Source: a virus
Virus record (IMG/VR): IMGVR_UViG_3300012928_002096
Span: 1,549 to 65,548 of that record
Length of the DNA: 64,000 nt
Direction: 5' to 3' (one strand)
Under the pieces are notes generated by a model. It did not search any database. It was not told the origin of the DNA and worked only from the letters and a program-made list of their open reading frames with translations. This document shows positions 1 to 33,071 of the stretch, piece after piece. Position 1 is the first letter of the stretch. Every line of letters starts with the position of its first letter. A program made the translations under genes and the position numbers.

Positions 1-248
1 CTAATTGGGAAAAAGGAATACCTTCTTGGTATAAGTATGGCAAAAAGAAAACTACATATCAGCAATGGCGTGATGCAGGGTATGGCATTAAACGTTTACA
101 AGGTATGGTAAATTTTATGGAAAGCGAAGACTGGAGTAGACGTCTACCTGAAATGAAAGAATTTTTACATAGGTGTGATGTGCAACGTGGCAACAGTTTT
201 GCCACAGTCTTTCCAGAGATGAAGGACATATTCGATGGCCTTGAATAG
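1..248 (+). CDS. C-terminal end of a radical-SAM-family protein (5' truncated by window edge)
   Basis: Open frame from nt 3 to TAG at 246-248; ends ...FLHRCDVQRGNSFATVFPEMKDIFDGLE, resembling the D-x-x-R-x-x-x-F tails of the downstream rSAM paralogs. Confidence 0.55.
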   Translation, partial: NWEKGIPSWYKYGKKKTTYQQWRDAGYGIKRLQGMVNFMESEDWSRRLPEMKEFLHRCDVQRGNSFATVFPEMKDIFDGLE

Positions 249-1509
249 TCTTCCTTGTTACTATGCACTAGGCGGTTTGAACTTGAAGCAACAGTTTGCT
301 ACAAGTTGTCCACAGCAATCTGATAGATTACAGTGGTTGGCAAAAGGACATTTACCTAGTCAATATTTTAACAATGAAGAATTTAAAAAACACAGATTAG
401 ATTTGCTAAGAGGCAATTGGCCTACTGGTTGTGATATGTGCCAAATAGTCGAAGAACAAAAGTCCGGTATCAGTATGCGACAGGAAACACCACCTGATAC
501 ACGTTGGACTGATTATGGCACAGGTGCCACAAAGTTTGAAGGTTTAAAAACTATTGAAATACGTTTTAGTAATGCTTGTAATATGGCTTGTTTACATTGT
601 AGTGCAGCGTTTAGCAGCGGCTGGATGACAAAATTAAAACGCTATCAACCAGATGAAATTGATCGTGAACACCACTTGGTACAACTTACACAAGATATGC
701 ATAGAAAACACATAGATGAAGCAATGCGTATTGAGCTAGATACAAAAATGGCTCTAGAAGTAGTTGATGACCTTATTGAAAACTTTCCTAATTTAGAAAG
801 AGTTGATTTTGCAGGTGGAGAGGTGTTGTATCAAAAACCATTTCTACCTACACTTGATAGACTTGCAGAACATCCAAATGCAAAAAATATGTTTATAATG
901 TTTCATACAAATTTTAATGCTCCATTTGATCCTGTAGCTCTTAGTCACCGCTTGGATAAATTTGGCAGCAGTGAAGTAAAAATAAGTATTGATTGTAGTC
1001 CAGGAATGTATCAATATTTTAGAGGCGGCGATTGGGACGTATTAGCAAAAAATATTGCAACTTTTAAATCTGTAAGAAGTAGGAAAACAAAAATTTCATT
1101 AATATGCACAACAGGTGTATATCAACTTATGCAGTTTAAAGATATTATACAAGGATTTGTAGAATTAGAATGTGATTATATTAACATTAGTATTATATAC
1201 ACACCTGAATATTTAAATCCTGCTCTTATGATGTTGTATTACAAAGACGAAACTGAAAAAGAAATAAACAGTGCTATTGCATACTTAACTAAATTTACAT
1301 CAAAAGACAGAAGTGACTGTTTTATTGCTTATCAAGGCATAAAAAACATATGGGAATATATACATAACCATCGAGTAGAAGAAAAACATTGGACAGCATT
1401 TAAAGAATATATTAAAAAAACTGATGTTATATGGAAACAAGAATTTAACGACCACTTTACAAATTATCAATTTGATAAAAATACAAATAGGATATTAAGA
1501 AATGTTTGA
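235..1509 (+). CDS. Radical SAM protein with N-terminal twitch/SPASM-like Cys cluster
   Basis: CNMACLHC (CxxxCxxC), FAGGE motif, N-terminal PCYY...SCP...GCDMC. Confidence 0.9.
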   Translation: MALNSLPCYYALGGLNLKQQFATSCPQQSDRLQWLAKGHLPSQYFNNEEFKKHRLDLLRGNWPTGCDMCQIVEEQKSGISMRQETPPDTRWTDYGTGATKFEGLKTIEIRFSNACNMACLHCSAAFSSGWMTKLKRYQPDEIDREHHLVQLTQDMHRKHIDEAMRIELDTKMALEVVDDLIENFPNLERVDFAGGEVLYQKPFLPTLDRLAEHPNAKNMFIMFHTNFNAPFDPVALSHRLDKFGSSEVKISIDCSPGMYQYFRGGDWDVLAKNIATFKSVRSRKTKISLICTTGVYQLMQFKDIIQGFVELECDYINISIIYTPEYLNPALMMLYYKDETEKEINSAIAYLTKFTSKDRSDCFIAYQGIKNIWEYIHNHRVEEKHWTAFKEYIKKTDVIWKQEFNDHFTNYQFDKNTNRILRNV

Positions 1510-2326
1510 AACAAGTAATAAATTTTATGAAAAACTAGGAGATGAATTTATTATCACTAAAATAAACCATTTAGATATTGCGTTTAGTAAAAAATGGAAA
1601 CGTATAGGTGTAAATTTAAGTGGAGGTGCTGATAGTGCATTACTTTGCTTTGTATTAGGTAAGATAATTGTTGATAATAATTTAGATTGTAAAATAGATG
1701 TAATCACATATCAGCGTTGTTGGGAAACTAGACCTTGGCAAGGATGGTGGAGTATACAAGTTTTCAATAAATTACAAAGTTTATATCCTAATATTATAGA
1801 AAATAGACATACAACATTCATACCACCTGCATTAGAACACGGTGTAAGTGGTCCTATTATAGATGGTAGGAGCGGTGACCAAATTATTGTAGGCGAATTT
1901 AATAAATTTGCAAGTTGGGAGTATAATTTAGATGCTGTATTCAATGCTACAAGTAAGAATCCAGACGACTCACGTGAAGATCGTATGAAAAATAGAGATG
2001 GTGACGCAGAAAATGCAAAAAGTTGGGATTTAATTTGGTTCAGTCCTAAATTAAAAACACATTTTTGTCATCCGTTTAGGTTTGTCAAGAAGGATTGGAT
2101 TGTAGCTCAATATCATCTTTACAATATACTTGATTTATATTATACTACACGTAGTTGTGAAGGAGATATCAACCATAATCCCGCAGTATCTGATGTTGTA
2201 AAAGATTTTACTAAGTACACATTAGGTATGGAAGTTCCTGTGTGTAATGAATGCTGGTGGTGTGATGAAAGACAGTGGGCTGAACAAAGAGTGCCTGAAA
2301 TGATAAAGGAAATTGATGAGTTTTGA
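1502..2326 (+). CDS. QueC-like PP-loop ATP pyrophosphatase
   Basis: GVNLSGGADSALL PP-loop; C-terminal TRSCE...CNECWWCDER Zn-binding motif. Confidence 0.75.
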   Translation: MFETSNKFYEKLGDEFIITKINHLDIAFSKKWKRIGVNLSGGADSALLCFVLGKIIVDNNLDCKIDVITYQRCWETRPWQGWWSIQVFNKLQSLYPNIIENRHTTFIPPALEHGVSGPIIDGRSGDQIIVGEFNKFASWEYNLDAVFNATSKNPDDSREDRMKNRDGDAENAKSWDLIWFSPKLKTHFCHPFRFVKKDWIVAQYHLYNILDLYYTTRSCEGDINHNPAVSDVVKDFTKYTLGMEVPVCNECWWCDERQWAEQRVPEMIKEIDEF

Positions 2327-3494
2327 TACTATAGATCTGCTTACTGGGCACGTTTTCCAAGTTACTTGGGATACCGGACGTAGGTGTAACTACGACTGTA
2401 GCTATTGTCCTGTGCATAGGCACGATAATTTTTCACGACACGCAACTATTGACGAACTCAAAGACAATGTTGACTTTTTGTATGAATATATTGATTTACA
2501 CCTAGGGTATAGAAAGAGTAAGATTGCAAATATTGGATTTACAGGCGGAGAACCAACAGTCAATCCAAACTTTATACCATTTGCAAAATATTTAAGATCT
2601 GAGTATGATACCAAATATAGGGATAAATGGGAATGTGGTTTTGCATTGACATCAAATGGTGCAATGGGTGAAAAAATGGGTCAAGCAGTAATGGAAAATT
2701 TTGATCACGCTACTGTAAGTTATCATAGTGAAAGCGATCAAAAACTAAAAGATCAAGTTAGGAACAGAATATTACAATTTCATTACAAAGGACAAGAACA
2801 TAATTTCACTGTAAGTGTAAATGTTATGTTTCACGCTGAATATTTTGACGAGTGCAAAGACTTGTGTGCTTTCTTAGAACAACATCAAGTTGACTATGTA
2901 CCAAGAGTTATAGGAGAAGAGCCTGATAGTCGTCCTAGTTTTGCACACAAATATAATGACGAACAACTTGCGTGGTTCAAAGATTATTGGCGTGTAAAAA
3001 ATGAAAAGAAAAACGATGAAAAAGAAATTAGTAAAGTATTAAGTGCAGCAGGCGAAAAGAAAAACGAAAAGAAAAAACTTGGAAACAGTATAGGACGTCC
3101 TTGTTGCGGAAGTAGAGATATGTTACTACACGCTGGTGCAAAAAGTAAAAAAAGTAATTTTGTAGATTTCAGACAATTCAAAGGTTGGAGTTGTAGTGTA
3201 AATTGGTTTTTCTTACATCTTGAACAGCAAACAGATAGTGTATTTCATCATCAAACTTGCCAAGCAAAATTCGAACACGGTAAACGTGGACGCATTGGCA
3301 AACTTAGTGAAGGTAAGCAAATTATTGCTGACCTAAGACAAAAAATGGAAACTAACACTATGCCTACTATTATATGTCCAAAAATGACTTGCGGTTGCGG
3401 ATTGTGTGCGCCAAAAAGTATGCATCAAGATAGGTATTTAGAAGTTTTAGGAAATCACTTAGATACAGGAGTATTAAATGTTAATCACGGGTAA
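2313..3494 (+). CDS. Radical SAM protein with C-terminal SPASM-like domain
   Basis: CNYDCSYC, FTGGEPT, C-terminal FKGWSC...QTC...CPKMTCGCGLC. Confidence 0.9.
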   Translation: MMSFDTIDLLTGHVFQVTWDTGRRCNYDCSYCPVHRHDNFSRHATIDELKDNVDFLYEYIDLHLGYRKSKIANIGFTGGEPTVNPNFIPFAKYLRSEYDTKYRDKWECGFALTSNGAMGEKMGQAVMENFDHATVSYHSESDQKLKDQVRNRILQFHYKGQEHNFTVSVNVMFHAEYFDECKDLCAFLEQHQVDYVPRVIGEEPDSRPSFAHKYNDEQLAWFKDYWRVKNEKKNDEKEISKVLSAAGEKKNEKKKLGNSIGRPCCGSRDMLLHAGAKSKKSNFVDFRQFKGWSCSVNWFFLHLEQQTDSVFHHQTCQAKFEHGKRGRIGKLSEGKQIIADLRQKMETNTMPTIICPKMTCGCGLCAPKSMHQDRYLEVLGNHLDTGVLNVNHG

Positions 3495-4032
3495 TAAAGA
3501 TTCTGGTATAGCACAGGCGTTACACAAACTTTATCCTGATGCAGAATTTTGTAGTCAAAGTACAGGATATGATTTAGCACGTAAATTAGATCAAGAAAGA
3601 CTTGCAGAACGTGTATGCGAACACGATGTGTTTATTAATTGTAGTGCATTGTTTAAATTTCATCAGACTACACTTTTAAATATTGTATATCATAAATGTA
3701 TGTTAGAAAAACATTGGTGTCATATTGTTAATGTTGGCAGCACTACCGATCGTGTTAAAAAAGGCGGTAGTTGGTTGTACAATGCAGAAAAGAAAGCATT
3801 GAGAGATTATTCTAATACACTAGGATTAAATGGTGTTTGGCATAGTGGACCAAAAATAAGTTACATTAGTTTTGGAACATTAAGTAATAATCAGCATAAA
3901 CATCCTAACAGAACTGTTATAGATATAGACACCGCTACAAGTTACATAAAATGGGTAATAGATCAACCTAAAGAACTTTGTATAAATGAAATTAGTATTG
4001 ATCCTATGCAGCCCGAACACTGGAGAGGCTAA
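3478..4032 (+). CDS. Short-chain dehydrogenase/reductase (compact SDR)
   Basis: LITGNKDSGIA Rossmann start, FINCS, VNVGS, YxxxK (YNAEK). Confidence 0.75.
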   Translation: MLITGNKDSGIAQALHKLYPDAEFCSQSTGYDLARKLDQERLAERVCEHDVFINCSALFKFHQTTLLNIVYHKCMLEKHWCHIVNVGSTTDRVKKGGSWLYNAEKKALRDYSNTLGLNGVWHSGPKISYISFGTLSNNQHKHPNRTVIDIDTATSYIKWVIDQPKELCINEISIDPMQPEHWRG

Positions 4033-5237
4033 TGTCTTCCTTGCCGAAGTATGGGTGTTTACTACCTATGCATCATATGGCTATTCGTCCAGATGGACAA
4101 GTTATACCGTGTTGTTATTTTAGACACGAATATGTTCCTAAAGGTTTAAATCTATCTTTGGACAATCCTTTCGAACATCCTTTTATGAAACAAAACAGAC
4201 AAAGTGTTTTACTTGATGAAATGATTCCAGGGTGTAGTAAATGTTACGAAGATGAAAAAACATCTGGACAAAGTATGCGTACAGAAATTTTTAATTCTCC
4301 GTATAATTTTCTAAACTTACCAACAGATGATAGTAGAGGAAAAATACCAAAACTTACAAACATAGATATTACATTTAGTAATGTTTGTAATAATAAATGT
4401 AGGATGTGTGGACCAGAATTAAGTACACAATGGTATAGTGACGCAAAGAAAATGAATTATCCGTTTGAAAAGCGTGGAATTATTGCTGAAAACAAATGGA
4501 TAGAAAATGCAGATGTAAGCGACTTGACTTTTATTAAGTTTTTAGGCGGCGAGCCTTTGATGGAACAAGAAAAAATGATTAAACTATTGCAAAAATGTAA
4601 TAGAGAAAAATTAGTTGTACATATTACTACAAACGGTACTTTGTTACCAAATGAAACATTACATCAACTGCTGCAAGATTGTGAAAAAGTATATATGACT
4701 GTAAGCATTGACCAGTTTGGCGAATTCAATGACTTACTGCGGAAAGGCAGTCATTGGGATACTACGTTGAACAATATGTTTGCTATGAAAGAAGATTACG
4801 GAAGACATCATACAACAGTGCATAGTGTTACATCTATATACAATGTAAACTTGTGTAATCAACTTATAGATTTTTGTATTGCAGAAAAATTTAATCAAAA
4901 AAATTGTATTGTTGATGGACCTAATTGGATGATGCCAAGAAATTTACCTGAAGCAGTAAAACAAAAATGTATTGATATAGTAAAAAAGCATTTAGTCAGT
5001 GCAACCAATACAAAAATTAGACAATTTGGTGATGCAAAATTTCATTACGATTTATTGATAAAAGAATTAGAACAAGAAGGCGACTTTGGAATGTTTTTAC
5101 GCAACGACACACGTATAAACATAATACGTAATGAACATTGGAAAGACTTTAATCCTTGGTTGTTCAATGAAATTCAGCCATACTTTGAAGATACACAACT
5201 AGAACCTGGACAACTAGATTACTTACGTAACCTCTGA
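4032..5237 (+). CDS. Radical SAM protein with N-terminal twitch/SPASM domain
   Basis: CLLP...RPDGQVIPCC...GCSKC; CNNKCRMC; FLGGEP; ITTNGT. Confidence 0.9.
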   Translation: MSSLPKYGCLLPMHHMAIRPDGQVIPCCYFRHEYVPKGLNLSLDNPFEHPFMKQNRQSVLLDEMIPGCSKCYEDEKTSGQSMRTEIFNSPYNFLNLPTDDSRGKIPKLTNIDITFSNVCNNKCRMCGPELSTQWYSDAKKMNYPFEKRGIIAENKWIENADVSDLTFIKFLGGEPLMEQEKMIKLLQKCNREKLVVHITTNGTLLPNETLHQLLQDCEKVYMTVSIDQFGEFNDLLRKGSHWDTTLNNMFAMKEDYGRHHTTVHSVTSIYNVNLCNQLIDFCIAEKFNQKNCIVDGPNWMMPRNLPEAVKQKCIDIVKKHLVSATNTKIRQFGDAKFHYDLLIKELEQEGDFGMFLRNDTRINIIRNEHWKDFNPWLFNEIQPYFEDTQLEPGQLDYLRNL

Positions 5238-5264
5238 TAAATATATAAAACTATTGAGGATAAA

Positions 5265-5759
5265 ATGTTCCACACAAAAAACATAAACTACAAAATGTTG
5301 AGTAAAGATTCTTTGGATGCTGTAAGAAAATTTGTCACAACAGAAAAACATCTTTTTGATATGGGAATCTCGTATTTGCCACACAAACCTAAGAATCAAA
5401 GTCATAGATGGAAACCTTATACAAATTTACTTAGACCTATTACAAATTATCTCAAAGAAAAAGATTTAAACATTACCATAATAGGGTCAAATAGAATTGA
5501 AGGAAATACAAAAAGAAATTCATTTAAAGTACCAAATAAAGTTAACGGCTCTAATACAACTATTTTCATACCGTTGTTTGATTATTCAAGAGAACAAAAA
5601 ATATTACATTTTGCCAACACTAATTGTGCATTAAATTCTACATTAGTGTTTGATAATTCTTTATATAGACGCTGGGTTAATGAATCTAACATAAAGTTTT
5701 GTTTTTTAGTCTATGGGGTGAGCGAGTCTATTAGTATAGTTACTGAAAGGTTGTCATAA
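5265..5759 (+). CDS. Hypothetical protein (possible degenerate double-stranded beta-helix fold)
   Basis: 164-aa ORF in the operon, GAGG RBS; TIFIPL and FCFLV strands only loosely resemble neighbouring oxygenases. Confidence 0.45.
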   Translation: MFHTKNINYKMLSKDSLDAVRKFVTTEKHLFDMGISYLPHKPKNQSHRWKPYTNLLRPITNYLKEKDLNITIIGSNRIEGNTKRNSFKVPNKVNGSNTTIFIPLFDYSREQKILHFANTNCALNSTLVFDNSLYRRWVNESNIKFCFLVYGVSESISIVTERLS

Positions 5760-5760
5760 T

Positions 5761-6357
5761 TTGCAAATCGTATATGGAGAACCGAGGACAGGTTCTCATT
5801 TTGTAGCAAGGCATATTGCTAATAAAAATAATATGTTATTTTTGGGAGAATATTTTAAAACTCCAATACCTAATGCACAAGTAAATATTGAAGATAAAAT
5901 AAAATCTATTCCGGAAAACTCTGTAATAATAATTCATCCAGATTTGTCATATGGCTATTACACAGATACTTTTTACGATTGGTTATTTTCTAATCCATTA
6001 ATAGTTACAGAAACAAATGATCGCTGGCGACAAGTTATAAGCTGGGGTATAGCAGCTAAAACAACAAATTATCATAGTTTTAATATTTCAAAGCAACTCG
6101 ATCAATATATAATTTATAAAAGAGAATTTTTTGATATGTTAAAATATTCTATACAAAAGTTTGAAAGTACTAAACATCTTATTAATTACAAAGAAAGATA
6201 CACTTTACAAGACCTTGATAAAATATCTTTTGTAAATGGAAAATATAATCCTACCAAAAAAACCTACAAGCAAAATACTCAACAATTAAGTTTAATGTAT
6301 GAAAATATTGAAGAAGTAAAAGAATGGTATCAGGAAATAAGAATTAATAAAAATTGA
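5761..6357 (+). CDS. Sulfotransferase-like P-loop protein
   Basis: N-terminal IVYGEPRTGSHF resembles the 5'-PSB PAPS-binding motif; downstream R-x-Q-x-x-S-W; TTG start. Confidence 0.55.
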   Translation: MQIVYGEPRTGSHFVARHIANKNNMLFLGEYFKTPIPNAQVNIEDKIKSIPENSVIIIHPDLSYGYYTDTFYDWLFSNPLIVTETNDRWRQVISWGIAAKTTNYHSFNISKQLDQYIIYKREFFDMLKYSIQKFESTKHLINYKERYTLQDLDKISFVNGKYNPTKKTYKQNTQQLSLMYENIEEVKEWYQEIRINKN

Positions 6358-6386
6358 ATAAATACATTTGTATACAGGAGACTACA

Positions 6387-7037: not shown

Positions 7038-7056
7038 TATTTCTATTAAATAATAG

Positions 7057-8385: not shown

Positions 8386-8393
8386 ATTAAGGA

Positions 8394-12018: not shown

Positions 12019-12703
12019 TCACGCTTTTTGTCATCTTATGCTTATACCTGCATTTTTGTATGGTGATGCTTGGATGTTCATAGCAGGATTTGCTTGGTGG
12101 TATGTAATTGCTATTGTTGCAATAAGTGGTGGATATCACAGATATTACAGTCATTTTAGTTTTAAGACACGCAAGTGGTATCCATATGCTGTAAATATTT
12201 TAGGAATGTTTGCAGGAGCAGGGCCAGCAATGACTTGGGCTGCAACACATAGACAACATCACGCATATAGTGACACTGAAGACGATCCCCACAGTCATAG
12301 TATCAAAGGTATTTGGAGTGTATATGTAAACACCTGGGGTTATGGTTTTAAAATTAAACGTAGATTTATAAAACGTTTACTACAAGATCCGTTGTTAAGA
12401 TGGTTCCACAAATATTACTTTCATTTAAATGTTGCAATTATTGTTGTGTTTACTGCTATTGATCCTATGCTTATGATATTTGGTTATGCTATGCCTGTTG
12501 TACTAGCATTTCACGGATATGGTTTGTTAAATGTTTTAGGACACAAAGATGCACAACCAAACAATAGTTGGATAGCAAACATATTAACTGCTGGCGAAGG
12601 TTGGCATAAAAATCATCATAAACGTGCAGGAAGTTATGAAATAGGACAAAAATGGTGGGAACTAGATCCTACTGCTTGGTTTATAAAAATAATTAAGGTT
12701 TAG
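11987..12703 (+). CDS. Membrane fatty-acid desaturase (delta-9-like)
   Basis: Three His boxes HRYYSH, HRQHH and GEGWHKNHH; hydrophobic segments; WWELDP tail. Confidence 0.9.
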   Translation: MMENTTKLLINHAFCHLMLIPAFLYGDAWMFIAGFAWWYVIAIVAISGGYHRYYSHFSFKTRKWYPYAVNILGMFAGAGPAMTWAATHRQHHAYSDTEDDPHSHSIKGIWSVYVNTWGYGFKIKRRFIKRLLQDPLLRWFHKYYFHLNVAIIVVFTAIDPMLMIFGYAMPVVLAFHGYGLLNVLGHKDAQPNNSWIANILTAGEGWHKNHHKRAGSYEIGQKWWELDPTAWFIKIIKV

Positions 12704-12704
12704 T

Positions 12705-13364
12705 ATGGACATTACTTTTGCAGCAATTGACTTAGGTATTAGTGCTTTAGAAAAACAAAAAATATTAAATGAGATACTTAGTGTTCCTGATGATTATTGG
12801 CATTACAATGAATTTAGAGGATGTCATATGCTAGGCATATACAACGGTGGCGGTAAACTAGGTGGTAGAGATGTAGCAGGAAATACTGCTAAAGGTGAAT
12901 TTGATTATACTCCAGCTGGTAAACTATGCCATTACACACGATATACATTAGAAAATAAAATGTTTCCTTTTATGGATCCTGTTGGCAGAGTAACAATACT
13001 ACGTACAAAAGTTAATGCTGGATTGTCTGTGCATTTAGATAGCACCTATGAAGAAATAGGTACATTACAACACAAGTTTAGATATGTTCTAAATGGTAAC
13101 ATTGACAAACTATATTTTTTAGATAGAGATCATAAAAAAATATTTGTGCCTGATTGTTATGATACCTATGTAATGGATGGTAGTCACGCACATAGTTTAG
13201 ATCCTGGCACAGAAGAAAAAATTACACTTTGTATAGGTGCTCCTTGGAAAGGAAAGCCTAATGCTAAGTATGATGAAATATTAAATAATTCATTATTTAA
13301 TTTTAAAGTAAGTAGACCAAGTTATTACAAGCAGGAATGGCTAGATCCATTTTTTAAAAAATGA
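12705..13364 (+). CDS. 2OG-Fe(II)/AspH-like oxygenase
   Basis: GRVTIL...SVHLD...KFRYV...DGSHAHSL. Confidence 0.65.
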   Translation: MDITFAAIDLGISALEKQKILNEILSVPDDYWHYNEFRGCHMLGIYNGGGKLGGRDVAGNTAKGEFDYTPAGKLCHYTRYTLENKMFPFMDPVGRVTILRTKVNAGLSVHLDSTYEEIGTLQHKFRYVLNGNIDKLYFLDRDHKKIFVPDCYDTYVMDGSHAHSLDPGTEEKITLCIGAPWKGKPNAKYDEILNNSLFNFKVSRPSYYKQEWLDPFFKK

Positions 13365-13957
13365 GAATTGTTACACTAGAACAATATGAAGAAAAATTTT
13401 TATCATATTGTAATAAGTTTTATAATTTAGATGATAGGAATAAAGATTGGTTTGATCCTGATTATGCAGGAAGCATACCAAATTCATACAAAAAATATCC
13501 ACTGTGGACTTTTCTCATAGACGACAACGATAACCTAATTGCATTGAGTTGTGTGCAAACACATTATTTTCCAGATGATTGTGCTAGGCTTTTAACAAGA
13601 ACATTTTACAATCCTGAATATAGACGCAAGCATTTAAAATATGAACATAATGAAAAAACACCTGCAATGTATATGCTTGAAGCACAACTTGAATTAACAA
13701 ACTATAAACATAATTTTATGAGTGTAGAATTTATAAGAAGAAAAAATTCACTAGTGAAATTGGCAAAAAAGCTCAACGATAAATATTCTACTAACTGGAA
13801 AGTGCTTGATAATTTATATCACACTTATCCAAACAGTGATGATCCACATAGTTGGCAACCAGTGTGTGTATTACAAACAGATAGTAAATTTCCGTTGAGA
13901 CACATATCGCAAACAGAATGGGAAAGCATATATGGCAGAAAAGTGTTTAATTCATAA
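13361..13957 (+). CDS. GNAT-like acyltransferase
   Basis: LIALSCV...ARLLTRTFYNPEYRRK resembles GNAT motif A. Confidence 0.5.
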   Translation: MRIVTLEQYEEKFLSYCNKFYNLDDRNKDWFDPDYAGSIPNSYKKYPLWTFLIDDNDNLIALSCVQTHYFPDDCARLLTRTFYNPEYRRKHLKYEHNEKTPAMYMLEAQLELTNYKHNFMSVEFIRRKNSLVKLAKKLNDKYSTNWKVLDNLYHTYPNSDDPHSWQPVCVLQTDSKFPLRHISQTEWESIYGRKVFNS

Positions 13958-14591
13958 TACTCGTAGAAGCAGAGTTGCAGGAAACAACGGACCAAGAAGA
14001 CATCAAATGAAAACACACGGTACAGTTACACAAAACGTACCTAAAGATGTATTAGAACAAATTTACCAAATTGCTGCTACATATAACGGAAATGATTTAG
14101 GCGGAGATAATTATCAGATATCACAGCATTGTGATGTAAAAACTGCATTTACTGCCAGTGAATCGTATTCACAAATTTTGTTGCAACAATTAAATGATGG
14201 CGCAGAAAATGAAGTTGATGAAACTAACTACACAACGTGGCGTAAAGACTTACAAACTAATCTAATTGAACAATACTTAGAAAACACGTTTAAAACACCG
14301 TATAGAGCCCGTATAAGCGTTATGCACGGGGGTAATGAACTAAATTACCACATAGACACTGATACAAGTGTGTTATGTCGTGTACAAATACCTGTAATTA
14401 CAGAAGGTAGTTTATTTCAATGGAAAACAAAAACTGAAGAAATTAGTTTAGATATGTTAACCGGCAATAGTTATTTTGTTAACACTGGTTGGCTACATAG
14501 AGTTACAAATGATAGTAACAACATAAGAATTGTTTTAATTTTTGGTGTTGACTATGACAATTTACCAAACAAAGAAAGTTTGCTAATTTGA
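13932..14591 (+). CDS. AspH-like 2OG-Fe(II) oxygenase
   Basis: RARIS...NYHID...RVQIP...GWLHRVTN...RIVLIF; true start may be ATG 14007. Confidence 0.75.
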   Translation: MAEKCLIHNTRRSRVAGNNGPRRHQMKTHGTVTQNVPKDVLEQIYQIAATYNGNDLGGDNYQISQHCDVKTAFTASESYSQILLQQLNDGAENEVDETNYTTWRKDLQTNLIEQYLENTFKTPYRARISVMHGGNELNYHIDTDTSVLCRVQIPVITEGSLFQWKTKTEEISLDMLTGNSYFVNTGWLHRVTNDSNNIRIVLIFGVDYDNLPNKESLLI

Positions 14592-15316
14592 CATATGTTG
14601 ATAAAAATGATTGGGTGTTTGATACAAAACAACTACAAACAGAGTTGCAAAAATTATTAGAAGAAAATAAAGTCAACAATCAACGAGATGGCAGTTTACA
14701 CGGGTTATGCCTAACTTCGCAGGACGGCAGTTTATACAATGGATTTAATTTTAATGTTGCTATACAATATCCTCCGTATGAACAACAAGATAAACAAGAT
14801 CCTAATCCTAAAATTTATTTTGATTTAGAATACGCTAAACAAAACAACATATATCATATGCTTGACTATGAAGTAGAAACAAATGCTTGTACAGGTATAT
14901 GGAAAGAAATAATAGACTTTTTGTACAGTAAAGGAATGAATCCACGTAGAGTAAGACTTTCTTACTTACCACCAGAAGGTGTTATTAATACACATAGCGA
15001 TGGAGGCGGATATAAATTTCATATACCGATATACACAGATGGTACAGATTTTGTACACGGAGACGAATCTTACACATTAGAAGAAGGTGGTAGTTATCTA
15101 GCAAGTGTTAATCCTTATCATTATGTAAAAAATAATGGTGACACAGATAGATGGCATCTAGTTGCTGATGTTTGGGACACAGTAGGAAACTTTAGGATTG
15201 GAAAAGTAGGGCAAGACGAATTTAATAATGAAAAAGTAAATGCAAAACTATGGCGTGATTATGTTAACGGAAAAATAGACACACCAAATAAAATTTTATT
15301 AGGAGCTGAAAACTAA
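14588..15316 (+). CDS. AspH-like 2OG-Fe(II) oxygenase
   Basis: RVRLS...NTHSD...KFHIP...YHYVKNNGDTDRWHLV. Confidence 0.8.
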   Translation: MTYVDKNDWVFDTKQLQTELQKLLEENKVNNQRDGSLHGLCLTSQDGSLYNGFNFNVAIQYPPYEQQDKQDPNPKIYFDLEYAKQNNIYHMLDYEVETNACTGIWKEIIDFLYSKGMNPRRVRLSYLPPEGVINTHSDGGGYKFHIPIYTDGTDFVHGDESYTLEEGGSYLASVNPYHYVKNNGDTDRWHLVADVWDTVGNFRIGKVGQDEFNNEKVNAKLWRDYVNGKIDTPNKILLGAEN

Positions 15317-16152
15317 TGCAAATGGACGCAGTAAGATATGAAATAGATTTTAACACTATGAGTGACTCAGAAATTGTAAACTGGGGTAAAAATATAGTAA
15401 AAGATAATGTTGTACTTGTTAGAAACCAAAACCTAGACGAAGCAGGCATACTAAGAGTTTGTGAATTAGTTGGCAATGTGCTGAAACCAAATCAATTTTT
15501 TATGCATCCAGATTACCCTGGCTTATTTAGAGTAACAAACGAACGTAAGGATGGCGATAAGATTGGTATCTTTGCAGACAAAGAACTAGACTGGCACAGT
15601 AACGGTAATGGTAGGAAAAGCGGCAAAGAGTGTTGTGTAGCCTTATATTGTATTCGTCCTGGTGAAAACAGTGTAACTAGTTTTTGTGATACTAGACAAG
15701 CATATAGAGATCTAAGCGAAGAAGATAAAAACTTTTACAAGCAAATAGATTGTACATTTAAATTTGAGAACGGAACATTTTATGACTTAGACGAAGATGA
15801 CAAAGAATTAAAAATGTTTCAAGGTGGCGCAAGAGATTTCAAGTATGGTGTTACAAAACCTTTGGTATATACGCATCCATATGATGGTGATGAAGGATTG
15901 TACTTTACATTTCATTACATTAGAGAAATGTGGCTTAGAGATAATCCAGAAGAGAAGTTGGACAAGCAACCTATCTTTGATAAATTAATGGCACATATTT
16001 TCCAAGACAAATATATTTGGCATCACGATGATTGGCAACCAGGTGATTTTATTTTTATGGATCAGTTTCATAGTATTCATAAACGTAATGCAGTCGAAGG
16101 TGATAGATTCTTATATAGACTAAGTTTTGATTATGAAGGTTGTTATGGATAA
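15316..16152 (+). CDS. TauD/TfdA-family dioxygenase
   Basis: DWHSN, TSFCDT, HPYDG, WQPGDFIFMDQ...HKR. Confidence 0.8.
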   Translation: MQMDAVRYEIDFNTMSDSEIVNWGKNIVKDNVVLVRNQNLDEAGILRVCELVGNVLKPNQFFMHPDYPGLFRVTNERKDGDKIGIFADKELDWHSNGNGRKSGKECCVALYCIRPGENSVTSFCDTRQAYRDLSEEDKNFYKQIDCTFKFENGTFYDLDEDDKELKMFQGGARDFKYGVTKPLVYTHPYDGDEGLYFTFHYIREMWLRDNPEEKLDKQPIFDKLMAHIFQDKYIWHHDDWQPGDFIFMDQFHSIHKRNAVEGDRFLYRLSFDYEGCYG

Positions 16153-16847
16153 TGCATTACTACGAACTAGAATGGACAGATGATTTCAAACTTATGTTTG
16201 AAATACTAACAAAGTTTTACGTTAGTATGCCTAGTATTCTAGATGATGAAACTCCAAGATTGCCTATTATTTTTGATAAATTAAAAGATGCATACGAAAA
16301 TCCTTTTAACAAGCATAAACAAGCATTATGGTTTGATAGAATAAAAGAACCAGATCAGGAAGTAAAATTAATACTTGAATTATTTGACAAATACAAATTC
16401 AAGCACAATATAGACTATTTTACACAATCTGGACATAAAGATATTACAGGTGAATTTTTACCACATAGACATATGCCAGGAAAAGTTAGACGTGGTGTTA
16501 CAGATGATGGTGCTGCTGTAGATAAAGTACAAACCGATGCAGTAGGCGAAAAAGGTACAGAAATACAAACTACAAATGTACAATTTACATTTCCGTATAT
16601 TAATTCACATTTAGGCGAAACACAATGGTCAGCAACATACGATGTGCCTTTCTTAGAAAGACGTAGATTTACAGAAGAAGAAATTACTGGCAGATACACA
16701 CTTAACACAAAGCCTGTTTTGTTTGATGTTAAGTCTTGGCACCAAGGACGTAATACAACAAATAATGAAGATAGAGTATTATTTGGTATACCAACTTTAT
16801 TTAATAATGTTAAAGAAGCAGTTAAATACCTAAGGAGATTACAATGA
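16140..16847 (+). CDS. 2OG-Fe(II)-like oxygenase, atypical HxH site
   Basis: LPHRH...QFTFP...PVLFDVKSWHQG...RVLF. Confidence 0.55.
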   Translation: MLWIMHYYELEWTDDFKLMFEILTKFYVSMPSILDDETPRLPIIFDKLKDAYENPFNKHKQALWFDRIKEPDQEVKLILELFDKYKFKHNIDYFTQSGHKDITGEFLPHRHMPGKVRRGVTDDGAAVDKVQTDAVGEKGTEIQTTNVQFTFPYINSHLGETQWSATYDVPFLERRRFTEEEITGRYTLNTKPVLFDVKSWHQGRNTTNNEDRVLFGIPTLFNNVKEAVKYLRRLQ

Positions 16848-17518
16848 ATAGATTGAGATATAAATTCGGAGATAGATTTGCAGAAACTAAAGGATACGAT
16901 GGGTTTGCTGCTGATAAAGATGAATTAAATAACTTCTTTGAACAAAAGGTAAAAGGAAAATTAGGTGATCATAACACTGTTGGTATAGATAGTACAAAGC
17001 AACATATATACAATGTTTGTTATGATTGTAATATACCTTTATGGAACGAAATATATAATCGTGTTACAAATATAGGTACGATGTGTGATGTAAAACTAAA
17101 TTGGGATGAAATAAAACATTGTATGCGTTTTACTTTTATATGGATGCCGCCAGGAGGAGATCTTACTCCACACACAGCTCATTACTTCAGAGCATTAAGT
17201 GCATTCAATACACCATTACGTGGCAAAACAGAAATAAGTTTCTACGAACATTTACCACAAGAAGATGGAACACACAAAGTCGGCAAAAAATTAGAAACGC
17301 ACGAATATTTCAATCCTAATTTTTTAAATGTAAATCGTTATCACGGTGTTGCAAATGATACAGAAGAAGAACGTATGATATTAAAAACACATTTACTTAT
17401 TGTGCCTTGGCAAAAACTTGTTAAAGCATACGAAGGTGATGATATTATTAATATGTTTGAAGAAACAGTTCCTTGGCAAAAACAAAAGAAAGAAACACAA
17501 GTCAAACGTCATGGATAA
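16844..17518 (+). CDS. 2OG-Fe(II)-like oxygenase with HxA motif
   Basis: MPPGGDLTPHTAH...FNTPL...LNVNRYHGV...RMILK. Confidence 0.6.
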   Translation: MNRLRYKFGDRFAETKGYDGFAADKDELNNFFEQKVKGKLGDHNTVGIDSTKQHIYNVCYDCNIPLWNEIYNRVTNIGTMCDVKLNWDEIKHCMRFTFIWMPPGGDLTPHTAHYFRALSAFNTPLRGKTEISFYEHLPQEDGTHKVGKKLETHEYFNPNFLNVNRYHGVANDTEEERMILKTHLLIVPWQKLVKAYEGDDIINMFEETVPWQKQKKETQVKRHG

Positions 17519-18299
17519 TTTTAACAAAGAAGAAATAATTAATCACGCACGTGAACACGGATGGTGGTTACAAAGAGATGTGCAAATGGATAGGAAGCAA
17601 TTTATGGAGTTTTGTAACCATATTGCTACACCTTGGTCGTGGAAAATACACGATATGCACGGAGAAGGCGATCTTAACGAAGAAGAAGTTGTAGATTGGT
17701 CAAGTGAAACTAGATTTATGAAACGTAGTTTGCCTTGGCACGCTGATAATCCTTGGAGTAAAGATTTTCAGTTTCCTTTACGTGCATTTTATGCAGTAAA
17801 TATACCTGATCCAAAAGACGGACCTTTAGAGTTTCTTAATCAAACAAAATGGTTTGAATCACTTGGCGAAAATCAAAAAGCAGACTTTAGATATATGAAA
17901 GTACTTGTGCAATGCTACAAAGGAAATTGCCAACCTTATTACGATGACTTTGTAAAAGTAAATCCAATTACAGGTAAAGAAAGTTTAAACTGGGGAAGTA
18001 AAGTTGTATACAGCGATGTATATGGGTTAGAACCTGATGAAGGACACGCACATAATCATTTTTCATTTACAATGGCAATTATGCGTGATAGGAATATTGT
18101 TCCTGATGAAGAAATATCTACTTGGTTTCAAGATATGATAGATAAAGGGCATCACGATATTGTTGAATTTAAAGAAGGTGATCTGCTTGTTAATGATAAT
18201 TGGACAACATTTCATTATAGAAGAACATTAACAAACCCTAACGAACGTTTACTTTATAGGAAAACATTGTTGCAACCATGGCAAAAATATATTGGCTAA
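17511..18299 (+). CDS. TauD/TfdA-family dioxygenase
   Basis: WHADN, NPITG, EFKEGDLLVNDNWTTFHYR...RLLYR; start moved to ATG 17511. Confidence 0.8.
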   Translation: MDNFNKEEIINHAREHGWWLQRDVQMDRKQFMEFCNHIATPWSWKIHDMHGEGDLNEEEVVDWSSETRFMKRSLPWHADNPWSKDFQFPLRAFYAVNIPDPKDGPLEFLNQTKWFESLGENQKADFRYMKVLVQCYKGNCQPYYDDFVKVNPITGKESLNWGSKVVYSDVYGLEPDEGHAHNHFSFTMAIMRDRNIVPDEEISTWFQDMIDKGHHDIVEFKEGDLLVNDNWTTFHYRRTLTNPNERLLYRKTLLQPWQKYIG

Positions 18300-18742
18300 C
18301 GATAAATGTAATTGGAAAAGATAATTATTTTAATGATTATCTCACAAATCCAGCAAAAAGATTTCAAACTGGTACAGGTAAAGCCTTAGGCAAAGATTAC
18401 TGGAAAATGTATGAACAGGCATATTTGTATGCTAAACACCAAGGACATATTATACTACGAGCAAAAGTTATTAACAAACGTAACGTGTTAAAAATATATC
18501 AAATATGGGATAGTAAAGATGTTCGTGAACAATGGGAACAAAAAGTTGATCCTAAATACTTTACTGCAACAGTACCACTTATTACATATCAATATCCTGT
18601 AAATGAAAAACAAAAAAACAAAATATTTGACTTAGTATTAAAAAGTAATAAAGTAATTTTACAGGCAGTAAGAGAAGATCATAGAACGCCAGGAATGACT
18701 ATAGGCGATCCTTTAAAGTTAGATGTACTTTATAAAACTTAA
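18278..18742 (+). CDS. Hypothetical protein, last gene of the enzyme island
   Basis: 154-aa ORF overlapping the upstream stop. Confidence 0.6.
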   Translation: MAKIYWLTINVIGKDNYFNDYLTNPAKRFQTGTGKALGKDYWKMYEQAYLYAKHQGHIILRAKVINKRNVLKIYQIWDSKDVREQWEQKVDPKYFTATVPLITYQYPVNEKQKNKIFDLVLKSNKVILQAVREDHRTPGMTIGDPLKLDVLYKT

Positions 18743-33004: not shown

Positions 33005-33042
33005 TTAATTCTCCGAGTTATAGACGAGGATGTCTATTGTTT

Positions 33043-33071
33043 ATAGTAACACTATTTAGATCTTTTGTCAA
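33043..33071 (-). promoter_or_regulatory. sigma70-type promoter upstream of folE-queE, with embedded TAAATA
   Basis: TTGACA-AAAGATCTAAATAGTGT-TACTAT (17-nt spacer, TG extension). Confidence 0.7.

What the first reader, a model, noticed from the sequence alone, without database searches (positions are those of the whole stretch)
1..18742. 18.7-kb phage island of about 25 tailoring enzymes with no scaffold-building enzyme, converging on virion genes
Seen: one co-oriented run, with many ATGA/TAATG overlaps, of 6 radical-SAM proteins, a QueC-like PP-loop enzyme, 2 SDRs, a sulfotransferase-like protein, a nitroreductase, a desaturase, a GNAT and about 9 2OG-Fe(II)/AspH/TauD oxygenases. There is no NRPS/PKS/terpene synthase and no obvious precursor peptide. 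It ends head-to-head with an S8 protease and tail-fibre gene. Known: rSAM-SPASM enzymes, FMN nitroreductase-fold oxidases and S8 peptidases co-occur in RiPP clusters, and AspH/2OG enzymes hydroxylate proteins and lipids. Inference: this is a hypermodification factory acting on a macromolecule (virion proteins or their glycans, phage DNA, or host envelope) rather than a set of metabolic AMGs.
Basis: partly seen in the sequence, partly recalled or inferred. Interest (0 to 1): 0.85.

Follow-up and report, generated by a model that had tools for sequence, protein, structure and literature searches.

The report
Phage radical-SAM and oxygenase tailoring island
A large uncultured marine phage carries, next to a tail-fibre-like gene, a tightly packed block of about 25 genes, mostly for radical and oxygen-dependent enzymes; half of the block also occurs in predatory bacteria beside sugar-chain genes, so it most likely tailors a sugar-type surface molecule, by chemistry nobody has yet worked out.

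Summary
Window 1-18742 is one co-oriented, overlapping run of 24 complete genes plus the 3' end of a 25th, and the contig end cuts the island.

Family searches support 19 of the 25 genes:
- four N-terminal-twitch radical SAMs (NCBIfam NF033640) and two other rSAMs;
- a PP-loop enzyme, two compact SDRs and a sulfotransferase-like protein;
- a nitroreductase, a DHODH-like flavoenzyme and a membrane desaturase;
- three AspH, two TauD and one AspH-like protein with His-x-Ala.

Six genes stay unassigned.

The left half (gA-g14) keeps its gene order in related IMG/VR phages. The same genes occur at 35-68% identity in Bdellovibrionota chromosomes, next to glycosyltransferase, nucleotide-sugar dehydrogenase and carbamoyltransferase genes. 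The right half varies gene by gene, but the same families recur, including beside the tail fibres of cultured Pelagibacter phage Mosig.

The RiPP reading fails. I found no precursor and no RRE, and the S8 protease pairs with the fibre-like gene in 69 of 80 phage loci whether or not an island is present.

The island most likely tailors a nucleotide sugar or glycan for the host envelope or the virion (confidence 0.42).

Papers have mentioned rSAM cassettes in marine myophage host-recognition clusters, and this scan has met the same cassette on other DNA. It is a new member of a known but uncharacterised kind.

The parts
3..248 (+). 3' end of gB, an N-terminal-twitch radical SAM. The full gene lies on the parent contig at 384-1796 (470 aa). 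Upstream of it is the truncated rSAM-like gA, at contig 1-387.
   Evidence: NF033640 at 423 bits against a cut-off of 170. CX3CX2C at residue 146 and an N-terminal 4-Cys motif. More than 2000 metagenomic clusters match; the top 120 are 79-89% identical.
235..1509 (+). g01, N-terminal-twitch radical SAM
   Evidence: NF033640 at 203 bits; Pfam Radical_SAM; CNMACLHC motif.
1502..2326 (+). g02, PP-loop ATP pyrophosphatase, distantly QueC-like. Predicted to adenylate or amidate a carboxylate.
   Evidence: Invariant SGGxDS and a C-terminal CxxCWWC (alignment A3). Profile E 0.025 against the PP-loops of Asn and NAD synthetases. Atlas nearest clusters are QueC-like at 0.97. Homologues of 22-30% identity occur in Bdellovibrionota clusters. 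No Pfam hit.
2316..3494 (+). g03, radical SAM without the N-terminal twitch
   Evidence: Pfam Radical_SAM 1.1e-11. CNYDCSYC at residue 25. 34-46% identity to genes in Bdellovibrionota clusters.
3478..4032 (+). g04, compact SDR-type oxidoreductase
   Evidence: adh_short 8e-4, below the cut-off. YNAEK motif. 67% identity in L004-type phages and 24-44% in Bdellovibrionota clusters.
4032..5237 (+). g05, N-terminal-twitch radical SAM
   Evidence: NF033640 at 236 bits. Pfam finds SPASM at residues 9-52, ahead of Radical_SAM at 113-259.
5265..6357 (+). g06 (unknown, 164 aa) and g07 (sulfotransferase-like, 198 aa). A two-gene cassette that is absent from L012 and L013.
   Evidence: No Pfam hit. For g07, Atlas nearest clusters carry Sulphotransf or Sulfotransfer_3 at 0.95-0.97. 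A GATAAATA motif lies 21 nt upstream of g06. The L012 gene list lacks both genes.
6387..7037 (+). g08, FMN nitroreductase-fold enzyme (probable start at 6387)
   Evidence: Pfam Nitroreductase 3.2e-10. 43-55% identity to Bdellovibrionota genes. Start chosen from the SD sequence and the homologue in L003.
7057..8385 (+). g09, N-terminal-twitch radical SAM
   Evidence: NF033640 at 367 bits. 85-91% identity in L002/L003, 54-56% in L004-L008, and 37-52% in the best Bdellovibrionota copies.
8394..9530 (+). g10, radical SAM. With gB it forms the conserved core pair.
   Evidence: Pfam Radical_SAM 2.3e-16. 55-68% identity to Bdellovibrionota genes, which usually lie next to the gB homologue.
9520..10194 (+). 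g11, unassigned beta-rich protein with an invariant H-x-D...H...R pattern; a possible 2OG-type oxygenase
   Evidence: Alignment A5 invariants H80, D82, H199 and R215. AlphaFold model with pLDDT 96, mostly strands. No Pfam, PDB-sequence or AspH-profile match.
10194..10883 (+). g12, DHODH-like TIM-barrel flavoenzyme; absent from L002 and L003
   Evidence: Pfam DHO_dh 7.5e-14; NCBIfam PRK07259 3e-18, below the cut-off; no tblastn match in related loci.
10844..11419 (+). g13, compact SDR-type oxidoreductase
   Evidence: TGHTNGIG and YTAHK motifs. 32% identity to g04. 35% identity to Bdellovibrionota genes.
11416..12018 (+). g14, AspH-family 2OG oxygenase
   Evidence: Pfam Asp_Arg_Hydrox 8.8e-12. 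H-x-D...H...R conserved in alignment A4. 39.5% identity to the Pelagibacter phage Mosig AspH.
11990..12703 (+). g15, membrane di-iron desaturase/hydroxylase
   Evidence: Pfam FA_desaturase 7.6e-12. Three His boxes and two hydrophobic segments. 34% identity to Mosig_00080.
12705..13957 (+). g16 (possible AspH-like cupin) and g17 (possible GNAT)
   Evidence: g16 against the AspH profile, E 0.03. For g17, Atlas gives GNAT only as a weak lead, and the pairwise E to the Mosig N-acetyltransferase is 0.012. Neither has a Pfam hit.
13932..15316 (+). g18 and g19, AspH-family 2OG oxygenases
   Evidence: Pfam Asp_Arg_Hydrox 2.5e-6 and 1.2e-8.
15316..16152 (+). g20, TauD-family dioxygenase with H-S-N at the H-x-D position
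   Evidence: Pfam TauD 1.5e-30. The nearest solved relative is ScoE (E 9e-6), and the alignment places WHSN opposite WHAD. 33% identity to the Mosig TauD.
16152..17518 (+). g21 (unassigned, invariant H-R-H...H) and g22 (AspH-like with H-T-A at the H-x-D position)
   Evidence: g22 against the AspH profile: E 1.6e-4, with PHTA aligned to WHSD. For g21: alignment A6 invariants, a model with pLDDT 72, and no significant profile match.
17511..18742 (+). g23 (TauD family) and g24 (unknown, 154 aa); the last genes of the island
   Evidence: Pfam TauD 1.5e-7 for g23. In L093, g23 is 91% and g24 76% identical, and both again lie next to the S8 gene.
18739..20673 (-). S8 subtilase with a C-terminal cupredoxin-like domain. 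It is convergent with the island and belongs with the fibre-like gene, not with the island.
   Evidence: Pfam Peptidase_S8 5e-29 and Copper-bind 1.9e-5; phrog_9158. A homologue of the 707-aa gene lies just upstream of the S8 gene in 69 of 80 IMG/VR loci.
20683..22806 (-). 707-aa fibre-like protein
   Evidence: Weak Mtd_N hit at the N-terminus. The body is rich in Gly, Thr, Asn and Asp and repetitive. 56-85% identity in clade relatives. A GATAAATA motif lies about 30 nt upstream of the start.

Best explanation
The island is the phage copy of an uncharacterised multi-enzyme tailoring pathway. Its core is N-terminal-twitch radical SAM enzymes (NF033640) plus partner rSAMs, small SDRs, a PP-loop amidating-type enzyme and a nitroreductase-fold flavoenzyme. 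A changeable set of O2-dependent oxygenases (AspH, TauD, di-iron desaturase) extends it.

Proposed mechanism (inferred):
1. A nucleotide-activated or carrier-linked sugar, for example a uronic acid made by the phage's own PMM, UGDH-family and epimerase genes, is rebuilt step by step.
2. The steps would be radical C-H chemistry (epimerisation, deoxygenation, C-C or C-methyl formation), SDR redox steps, adenylation or amidation of a carboxylate, sulfation and hydroxylation.
3. The product is then placed on a surface glycan of the infected cell, or on the virion fibres. That would change what is displayed at the level of phage-host recognition.

Shown here: the gene content, its conservation, its sharing with Bdellovibrionota glycan-type loci, and its position next to fibre-like genes.

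Inferred: the substrate class, the reactions and the acceptor.
For: 1. Coherence. gA-g14 keep their order at 65-99% identity in L002 and L003. gB, g09 and g04 persist in more distant phages with other rSAMs. Related contigs carry 7 to 11 or more rSAM genes around gB.

2. Shared with cells. A taxonomically unbiased pattern scan of GTDB genomes returned mostly Bdellovibrionota. Their clusters hold gB (58-66%), g10 (55-68%), g09 (37-52%), g03, g04, g08, g02, gA and g13 together, including on closed chromosomes.

3. Glycan context in cells. The neighbours include two GT2, PMT_2, a carbamoyltransferase, a UDP-Glc/GDP-Man dehydrogenase and an LPG_synthase_TM-domain protein. In a small BLAST tally, 16 of 70 loci had such a gene within 10 kb.

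4. Glycan context in phages.
- The same contig encodes an epimerase/dehydratase, a GT1, a UGDH-family protein, PMM and a cytidylyltransferase.
- In relative G002, a nucleotide-sugar 6-dehydrogenase (PDB 1mfz, E 6e-17) sits among the rSAM genes upstream of gA.
- The Mosig island combines AspH, TauD, desaturase, nitroreductase and rSAM genes with an ArnB/DegT-type sugar aminotransferase, a carbamoyltransferase and an epimerase, between the tail fibres and VrlC.
- g07's nearest Atlas families are sulfotransferases, including the Stf0 type.

5. Position and timing. There is a fibre-like gene on one side in the window and on both sides in G002. A depleted ATAAATA motif (13 observed against 36 expected) lies 20-40 nt upstream of g06, g08, g14 and the fibre-like gene.

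6. Literature. Zaragoza-Solas et al. 2020 (PMC7029224) describe a hypervariable host-recognition cluster in pelagimyophages with LPS-type genes and rSAM cassettes.
Against: - No glycosyltransferase or sugar-activating gene lies inside the island as seen in this window.
- The window's sugar genes are 16-24 kb away, on the other strand, and interleaved with a deazaguanine DNA-modification locus that could be their real partner.
- Only about a quarter of the bacterial loci showed a recognisable sugar or envelope gene within 10 kb, and that tally used few BLAST queries.
- No member of NF033640 has a known substrate, and rSAM, AspH and nitroreductase families also act on peptides, lipids and nucleotides.
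- The right half is not conserved gene for gene, so it may not act on the same substrate as the left half.
- Three of the oxygenase-like proteins lack the canonical carboxylate ligand: H-S-N in g20, H-R-H in g21 and H-T-A in g22.
Confidence: 0.42

Rival explanations
1. Protein or peptide modification (RiPP-like). On this reading the rSAMs, the nitroreductase-fold dehydrogenase, the AspH hydroxylases and the S8 protease mature a ribosomal product, such as a virion protein or a secreted peptide.
For: Weak NCBIfam similarities of g03, g05 and g10 to peptide maturases (PapB, SkfB, YhhB and others) at E 1e-5 to 1e-10, all far below their cut-offs. AspH enzymes hydroxylate proteins. The island lies next to a fibre-like gene and a protease. 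Earlier scan note e1-1937314 proposed virion-protein maturation for another phage rSAM array.
Against: No gap in the island is longer than 27 nt, so there is no room for a precursor gene. No Pfam hit other than those named, and so no RRE/PqqD domain, appeared in any of the 25 proteins. The contig has no His-x-Ser, poly-Ser or tagged proteins in coding frames. The S8 gene pairs with the fibre-like gene in 69 of 80 loci, mostly without any island. The bacterial counterparts sit beside GT and sugar genes.
Confidence: 0.15
2. Membrane-lipid remodelling. On this reading the desaturase/hydroxylase, the AspH (LpxO/OlsC-like) enzymes and a GNAT-like acyltransferase modify aminolipids or lipid A of the infected cell, with the rSAMs acting on lipid chains or head groups.
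For: g15 is a membrane di-iron enzyme with three His boxes. LpxO and OlsC belong to the AspH family (established knowledge). The combination AspH + acetyltransferase + TauD + desaturase + AspH recurs in Mosig. An LPG_synthase_TM-domain protein neighbours some bacterial clusters. First-stage note e1-5326626 proposed the same reading.
Against: All proteins other than g15 lack transmembrane segments. The GNAT assignment of g17 is weak. There are no acyl-carrier, acyl-CoA or lipid A genes in the island. The rSAM half has no similarity to known lipid rSAMs beyond the shared core (Tes E 6e-5, far below its cut-off).
Confidence: 0.15
3. A hyperplastic 'junkyard'. On this reading the genes are independent auxiliary metabolic genes that pile up in a permissive region near the fibre genes and share no substrate. 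Examples would be TauD for organosulfur use, and 2OG oxygenases for DNA repair or 2OG balance, as proposed for cyanophages.
For: The right half differs between the window, G001 and G002. g06-g07 and g12 are present or absent as cassettes. Single TauD and 2OG oxygenase genes occur in cyanophages (Sullivan et al. 2010, PMC3037559). There are possible internal promoters.
Against: The left half keeps its order across phages, and the same gene set co-occurs in bacteria. gB is 79-89% identical across more than 100 clusters. The same oxygenase families recur at the same place at only 29-36% identity, which argues for selection on the set. Genes are translationally coupled.
Confidence: 0.15
4. Nucleic-acid hypermodification. 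On this reading the PP-loop QueC-like enzyme, the rSAMs and the oxygenases elaborate a modified base or nucleotide, for example a 7-deazaguanine derivative, for the phage DNA.
For: The contig has FolE and, by the first-stage notes, QueE, QueD-like and DpdA-like genes but no queC. g02 is distantly QueC-like. TauD-family and rSAM enzymes act on nucleotides in some pathways (established knowledge).
Against: g02 homologues occur, sometimes in tandem, in Bdellovibrionota rSAM clusters. g02 has no Pfam QueC hit. The island is about 12 kb from the deazaguanine genes and on the other strand.
Confidence: 0.07

Closest known systems
Host recognition cluster (HRC) of pelagimyophages and cyanomyophages (Zaragoza-Solas et al. 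2020, PMC7029224). A cultured example is Pelagibacter phage Mosig EXVC030M, 54.7-74.6 kb.
   Same: A large hypervariable island next to tail-fibre genes, holding genes unrelated to virion structure. Both carry AspH, TauD, FA desaturase, nitroreductase and rSAM genes. g20, g15 and g14 are 33-39% identical to the Mosig proteins. The paper notes rSAM cassettes as the variable part.
   Different: The backbone here is a jumbo phage whose DNA polymerase is nearest to Phosso and Atu_ph07 (48-50%), not a T4-like Kyanoviridae phage. The rSAMs here are the NF033640 set shared with Bdellovibrionota and have no BLAST-detectable homologues in the 26-kb Mosig island stretch that was compared. No glycosyltransferase lies inside the island in the window.
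NCBIfam NF033640, 'twitch domain-containing radical SAM protein' (N_Twi_rSAM)
   Same: gB, g01, g05 and g09 score 203-423 bits against a cut-off of 170. They have the N-terminal Cys-rich module ahead of CX3CX2C.
   Different: The family is a sequence definition only. No substrate or reaction is attached to it, so membership does not explain the function.
Multi-rSAM clusters of Bdellovibrionota (for example OZ242254.1 at 1.41-1.43 Mb). Earlier notes of this scan reported these too.
   Same: The same gene set (gB, g10, g09, g03, g04, g08, g02, gA, g13) at 24-68% identity, often with gB and g10 adjacent.
   Different: The bacterial clusters sit beside GT2, PMT_2, carbamoyltransferase and UGDH genes, and often add B12-rSAMs. 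The phage version instead adds AspH, TauD and desaturase genes and lies by fibre-like genes.
RiPP gene clusters with rSAM-SPASM maturases (sactipeptides, ranthipeptides, streptide)
   Same: A radical SAM core with an auxiliary Fe-S module, and co-occurrence with a nitroreductase-fold enzyme and a nearby protease.
   Different: The auxiliary module is N-terminal. No precursor, RRE, transporter or dedicated peptidase was found.
Marine T4-like environmental viral genomes rich in Fe-S proteins (Nishimura et al. 2017, PMC5332604)
   Same: That paper reports one 183-kb T4-like genome with 12 rSAM genes, which is the same phenomenon of rSAM multiplicity in marine phages.
   Different: The paper discussed it only as Fe-S demand, with no analysis of the cluster, its bacterial counterpart or its position.

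Membership tests
NCBIfam NF033640 (N_Twi_rSAM) | Whole-protein score above the curated cut-off of 170 bits | tested here: met
   gB 423, g09 367, g05 236 and g01 203 bits. g03 and g10 match only the core (22 and 47 bits) and are not members.
NCBIfam NF033640 (N_Twi_rSAM) | A Cys-rich twitch-like module N-terminal to an intact CX3CX2C | tested here: met
   The regex finds C...CC...CxxC within the first 100 residues or so, and CX3CX2C at residues 115-146, in gB, g01, g05 and g09. Pfam places SPASM at residues 9-52 of g05.
RiPP cluster with an rSAM-SPASM maturase | A precursor peptide gene next to the maturase | tested here: not met
   The largest intergenic gap is 27 nt. No Cys-, Ser- or His-repeat peptides occur in coding frames. 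The 73-aa ORF in L012 has no precursor-like features.
RiPP cluster with an rSAM-SPASM maturase | An RRE (PqqD-like) domain, or a C-terminal SPASM with two auxiliary clusters | tested here: not met
   No Pfam hit other than those named, and so no PqqD, appeared in any island protein at E<=0.01. The auxiliary motif is N-terminal.
RiPP cluster with an rSAM-SPASM maturase | A dedicated leader peptidase linked to the cluster | tested here: not met
   The S8 gene is linked to the 707-aa fibre-like gene in 69 of 80 loci. Only about 14 loci, all in this clade, have island genes nearby.
Host recognition cluster of marine myophages | A hypervariable island embedded in or next to the tail-fibre module | tested here: met
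   A fibre-like gene lies at 20683-22806. In G002 a 657-aa protein with a fibre-type N-domain and a 3190-aa protein lie beyond the far end. The right half differs between the window, G001 and G002.
Host recognition cluster of marine myophages | A T4-like (Kyanoviridae) genome with the island between VrlC and gp14 | tested here: not met
   The DNA polymerase is nearest to 350-490-kb jumbo phages. The 3190-aa neighbour shows no BLAST similarity to the Mosig VrlC.
Host recognition cluster of marine myophages | LPS- or glycan-type genes inside the island | tested here: inconclusive
   There are none in window 1-18742. A UGDH-like gene lies inside the island of relative G002, and the window's sugar genes are at 34.8-42.9 kb.
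2OG-Fe(II) oxygenases (Pfam PF05118 AspH, PF02668 TauD) | A Pfam score above the gathering threshold | tested here: met
   g14 45.6, g18 27.9 and g19 35.4 bits (cut-off 22.6); g20 107.5 and g23 32.0 bits (cut-off 27). g11, g16, g21 and g22 have no Pfam hit.
2OG-Fe(II) oxygenases (Pfam PF05118 AspH, PF02668 TauD) | The His-x-Asp/Glu...His iron triad | tested here: inconclusive
   The triad is present in g14, g18 and g19 (alignment A4). g20 has H-S-N, g22 has H-T-A and g21 has H-R-H. g23 was not checked.
QueC (7-cyano-7-deazaguanine synthase, PF06508) | A family-level HMM match, and a genomic link to folE, queD and queE | tested here: not met
   No Pfam hit even at E<=10; only the PP-loop and a Cys cluster are shared. 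Homologues lie in bacterial rSAM clusters.

The most novel reading that the evidence does not exclude
A family of abundant marine jumbo phages took over a many-step radical-SAM pathway, probably from Bdellovibrionota-like predatory bacteria. They extended it with fast-evolving oxygenases. The pathway builds a heavily modified sugar-type unit that is displayed on the infected cell or on the virion fibres. That would be a phage-encoded surface 'hypermodification' system resting on an enzyme family (NF033640) whose reactions are new to enzymology.
Probability: 0.35. Interest if true: 0.8.

Novelty: new member of a known kind. Interest (0 to 1): 0.55.

Why it matters
- The core enzyme gB is one of the most conserved genes of this phage group. 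More than 2000 metagenomic clusters match it, and the best 120 are 79-89% identical. Yet no member of its family has a known substrate.
- The same gene set occurs in phages and in predatory bacteria. Working out its product would add new radical enzymology.
- It would also explain what marine myophages and jumbo phages keep in the variable islands beside their fibre genes. That bears on host recognition and on exclusion of competing phages in the ocean.
- A cultured phage with an analogous oxygenase and rSAM island (Pelagibacter phage Mosig) makes part of this testable. Culturable Bdellovibrio-like strains may carry the cluster too; the loci with the gB+g10 core found here are all MAGs.

Tried and rejected
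- DNA-level search of cultured phages with the whole island found no match.
- Protein searches of cultured phages with gB, g09 and g10 found nothing above 30% identity; the full-length matches were 21-22%.
- The RiPP reading was rejected for the reasons given above.
- I looked for the His-x-Ser or poly-Ser tailed and N-terminally tagged substrate proteins that earlier scan notes reported beside other phage rSAM arrays. None lies in a coding frame of this contig.
- Single-sequence and profile searches of PDB sequences gave nothing useful for g02, g07, g11 and g21, or for two neighbours in G002. The one exception was the PP-loop match for g02.
- Pfam at E<=10 gave nothing for g06, g07, g11, g16, g17, g21, g22 and g24.
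Their folds were therefore not compared with any library.
- Co-variation of island content with the fibre allele could be looked at only loosely. L093 keeps g23 and g24 (91% and 76%) with a fibre-like protein only 60% identical. G002 has a 66%-identical fibre-like protein and a different right end. This shows no sign of co-variation, but the cases are too few for a test.
- Direct and inverted repeats in the island show no recent duplication.
- The consensus sigma-70 promoter and terminator scans were at background level.

Full report
**What the window is.**
- The window is bases 1549-65548 of a 67,036-bp IMG/VR viral contig that CheckV rates 19% complete.
- Its family-B DNA polymerase (43500-46163, - strand) is nearest to Sinorhizobium phage Phosso (469 kb, 50%) and Agrobacterium phage Atu_ph07 (490 kb, 48%). 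The next nearest are 350-kb Vibrio and E. coli jumbo phages. 'Jumbo phage' is therefore reasonable.
- GC content is about 33%. GC skew flips at about 18.7 kb, where the gene strand changes.

**The observation.**
- Every ORF of at least 150 aa in 1-18742 is on the + strand.
- Junctions overlap by 1-17 nt or leave at most 27 nt between genes.
- The first ORF is the 3' end of a 470-aa gene (gB) that starts 1.2 kb upstream on the contig. Before it lies a truncated gene (gA) that the contig end cuts.

Pfam and NCBIfam give:

| Gene(s) | Assignment |
|---|---|
| gB, g01, g05, g09 | NF033640 'twitch domain-containing radical SAM protein', above its cut-off |
| g03, g10 | other rSAMs |
| g08 | nitroreductase |
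| g15 | FA_desaturase |
| g14, g18, g19 | Asp_Arg_Hydrox |
| g20, g23 | TauD |

- All six rSAMs keep CX3CX2C, and the four NF033640 members have an N-terminal four-Cys motif.
- g04 and g13 are compact SDRs, judged by motif and weak HMM hits.
- g02 is a PP-loop enzyme: it has an invariant SGGxDS and a C-terminal Cys cluster, its profile hits the PP-loop of Asn and NAD synthetases at E 0.025, and its nearest Atlas clusters are QueC-like.
- g07 is sulfotransferase-like by Atlas features.
- g22 aligns to a profile of the local AspH-like proteins at E 1.6e-4, with H-T-A where they have H-x-D.
- g16 (E 0.03), g11 (invariant H-x-D...H...R; model pLDDT 96) and g21 (invariant H-R-H...H) remain candidates only.
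- The GNAT call for g17 is weak.
- g06 and g24 are unknown.
- The island meets the S8 protease gene tail-to-tail, not head-to-head.

**Relatives among phages.**
- Two IMG/VR contigs (L002 in G001, L003 in G002) keep gA-g14 in the same order at 65-99% identity, without g12. After g14 they carry different AspH and nitroreductase genes.
- Five more distant contigs keep gB (83-86%), g09 (54-56%) and g04 (62-68%) among other rSAMs, including a B12-rSAM.
- gB matches more than 2000 metagenomic 90%-identity clusters. The best 120 are 79-89% identical, on contigs of up to 322 kb.
- Around gB these contigs carry 7 to 11 or more rSAM genes.
- In G001 and G002 the island is about 25.5 kb from gA to the same S8 gene.
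- In G002 the rSAM region continues at least 11 kb upstream of gA. That stretch contains a nucleotide-sugar 6-dehydrogenase (GDP-mannose 6-dehydrogenase 1mfz, E 6e-17).
- Beyond that lie proteins of 657, 675 and 3190 aa. The N-terminal 130 residues of the 657-aa protein match proteins of Phosso and Atu_ph07 (annotated hypothetical) and a MIJ3 protein annotated as a tail fibre.
- No cultured phage has a close homologue of gB, g09 or g10.

**The S8 protease and the fibre-like gene.**
- The 707-aa protein has an Mtd_N-like N-terminus and a repetitive body rich in Gly, Thr, Asn and Asp.
- The S8 protein has an intact Asp/His/Ser triad and a cupredoxin-like domain with His/Cys/His/Met ligands.
- Of 80 IMG/VR loci that encode an S8 relative, 69 have a homologue of the 707-aa gene just upstream.
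- Only the roughly 14 loci that share this phage's flanking genes have island genes convergent with S8.
- The protease therefore belongs with the fibre-like gene and is not an island component.
- Within the clade, the genes nearest S8 are again TauD-, AspH-, desaturase- and nitroreductase-like, but often at only 29-36% identity. In L093 they are g23 and g24 at 91% and 76%.

**Relatives in cells.**
- A pattern scan of one genome per GTDB species, using an alignment of the NF033640 paralogues, returned 70 loci. They are overwhelmingly Bdellovibrionales, Bacteriovoracaceae and Oligoflexia, and several lie on closed chromosomes.
- These loci hold the island's left half as a set: gB 58-66%, g10 55-68%, g09 37-52% (best copies), g03 34-46%, g04 24-44%, g08 43-55%, g02 22-30%, gA 27-40% and g13 35%.
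- Their neighbours include two GT2, PMT_2 and an FAD amine-oxidase-like protein. There are also further rSAM-SPASM and B12-rSAM genes, an AspH-domain protein, a carbamoyltransferase, a UDP-Glc/GDP-Man dehydrogenase and an LPG_synthase_TM-domain protein.
- A small BLAST tally found a sugar or envelope gene within 10 kb in 16 of the 70 loci.
- In a gB tree rooted on the paralogue g09 (a long branch, so the root is tentative), all phage sequences form one clade nested among Bdellovibrionota, nearest to Bacteriovoracaceae. The rows labelled as cellular that fall inside the phage clade come from MAG contigs of 3 and 13 kb and are probably mis-binned phage DNA.

**A cultured analogue.**
- g20, g15 and g14 are 33-39% identical to proteins of Pelagibacter phage Mosig.
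- In Mosig these genes lie in a 20-kb island between the tail-fibre genes and VrlC. The deposited annotation lists:
  - AspH (two), N-acetyltransferase, methylase, TauD, peroxiredoxin, FMN reductase and aminotransferase;
  - FA desaturase, nitroreductase (two) and three MoaA-like rSAMs;
  - an ArnB/DegT-type sugar aminotransferase, a carbamoyltransferase, a methyltransferase and an epimerase.
- This is the 'host recognition cluster' of Zaragoza-Solas et al. 2020. They note LPS-type genes and rSAM cassettes there, and propose surface alteration against co-infection (PMC7029224).
- Nishimura et al. 2017 recorded a T4-like marine genome with 12 rSAM genes (PMC5332604).
- Sullivan et al. 2010 recorded multiple 2OG-Fe(II) oxygenase genes in cyanomyophages (PMC3037559).
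- None of these papers assigns a function.

**Other context in the window.**
- The same contig encodes an NAD-dependent epimerase/dehydratase, a GT1, a UDP-Glc/GDP-Man dehydrogenase-family protein, a phosphomannomutase, a cytidylyltransferase and FolE, at 32-43 kb on the - strand.
- The heptamer ATAAATA is depleted: 13 occurrences against 36 +/- 5 expected.
- Most copies lie 20-40 nt upstream of start codons. These include g06, the probable true start of g08, g14 and the fibre-like gene.
- The motif looks like a late-promoter element, which would mean that parts of the island are transcribed together with virion genes. This is an inference.

**Reading.**
- The best-supported explanation is a tailoring pathway for a sugar-type small molecule, whose product ends up on a surface glycan or on the virion.
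- What is shown is the gene set, its conservation, its glycan-type neighbourhood in bacteria and in phage relatives, and its place beside fibre-like genes.
- The substrate, the reactions and the acceptor are inferred.
- The rivals are protein modification, lipid remodelling, unlinked AMGs and nucleic-acid modification. They remain open at lower odds, and the evidence for and against each is given in its field.

**Novelty.**
- The kind of island is already on record in the literature and in earlier notes of this scan. I repeated the Bdellovibrionota link independently here.
- What this case adds:
  - a jumbo-phage backbone;
  - the join of the NF033640 cassette to an AspH/TauD/desaturase array;
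  - the separation of the S8 protease from the island;
  - a cultured phage that holds an analogous island.

Noticed in passing
window 18739-20673 (-): An S8 subtilase with an intact Asp/His/Ser triad, fused to a cupredoxin-like domain that keeps the type-1 copper ligand pattern (HP...YYICGNHSSM). Its gene follows a fibre-like gene in 69 of 80 IMG/VR loci, including cyanophage-like contigs.
   Followed up: partly
window 5237, 6358, 11373, 22838, 28282, 33434, 52187, 63802 (among 13 sites): The heptamer ATAAATA, often as GATAAATA, is three-fold depleted in the window. Most copies lie 20-40 nt upstream of start codons, so it is a candidate late-promoter element of this phage.
   Followed up: partly
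window 15316-17518: Three neighbouring oxygenase-like proteins lack the usual carboxylate iron ligand: g20 has H-S-N, g21 has H-R-H and g22 has H-T-A. The last pattern is the one seen in 2OG halogenases.
   Followed up: partly
window 31237-42876 (-): A nucleotide-sugar toolkit (epimerase/dehydratase, GT1, UGDH-family protein, PMM, cytidylyltransferase) next to FolE and a phosphoribosyltransferase. First-stage notes read this stretch as a deazaguanine DNA-modification locus.
   Followed up: partly
L088, L045, L089, L064 (genome contigs): MAG contigs labelled Arcticimaribacter, Neisseriaceae, Rickettsiales and Planctomycetota carry gB at 56-81% identity. In the gB tree they fall inside or beside the phage clade, so they are probably phage DNA binned into bacterial MAGs.
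   Followed up: partly
L174:8279-17851 (G002 contig 78.3-87.9 kb): A 3190-aa ORF lies beyond the far end of the island in the nearest relative. It has no BLAST similarity to the VrlC of phage Mosig.
   Followed up: partly
L009:19763-21413: On a 322-kb contig that carries a gB relative, a Trp_halogenase-family gene and an AMP-binding-domain gene follow the rSAM array.
   Followed up: no
window 5265-6357 and 10194-10883: g06-g07 are missing from L012 and L013, and g12 is missing from L002 and L003. The island therefore gains and loses one- or two-gene cassettes between close relatives.
   Followed up: partly
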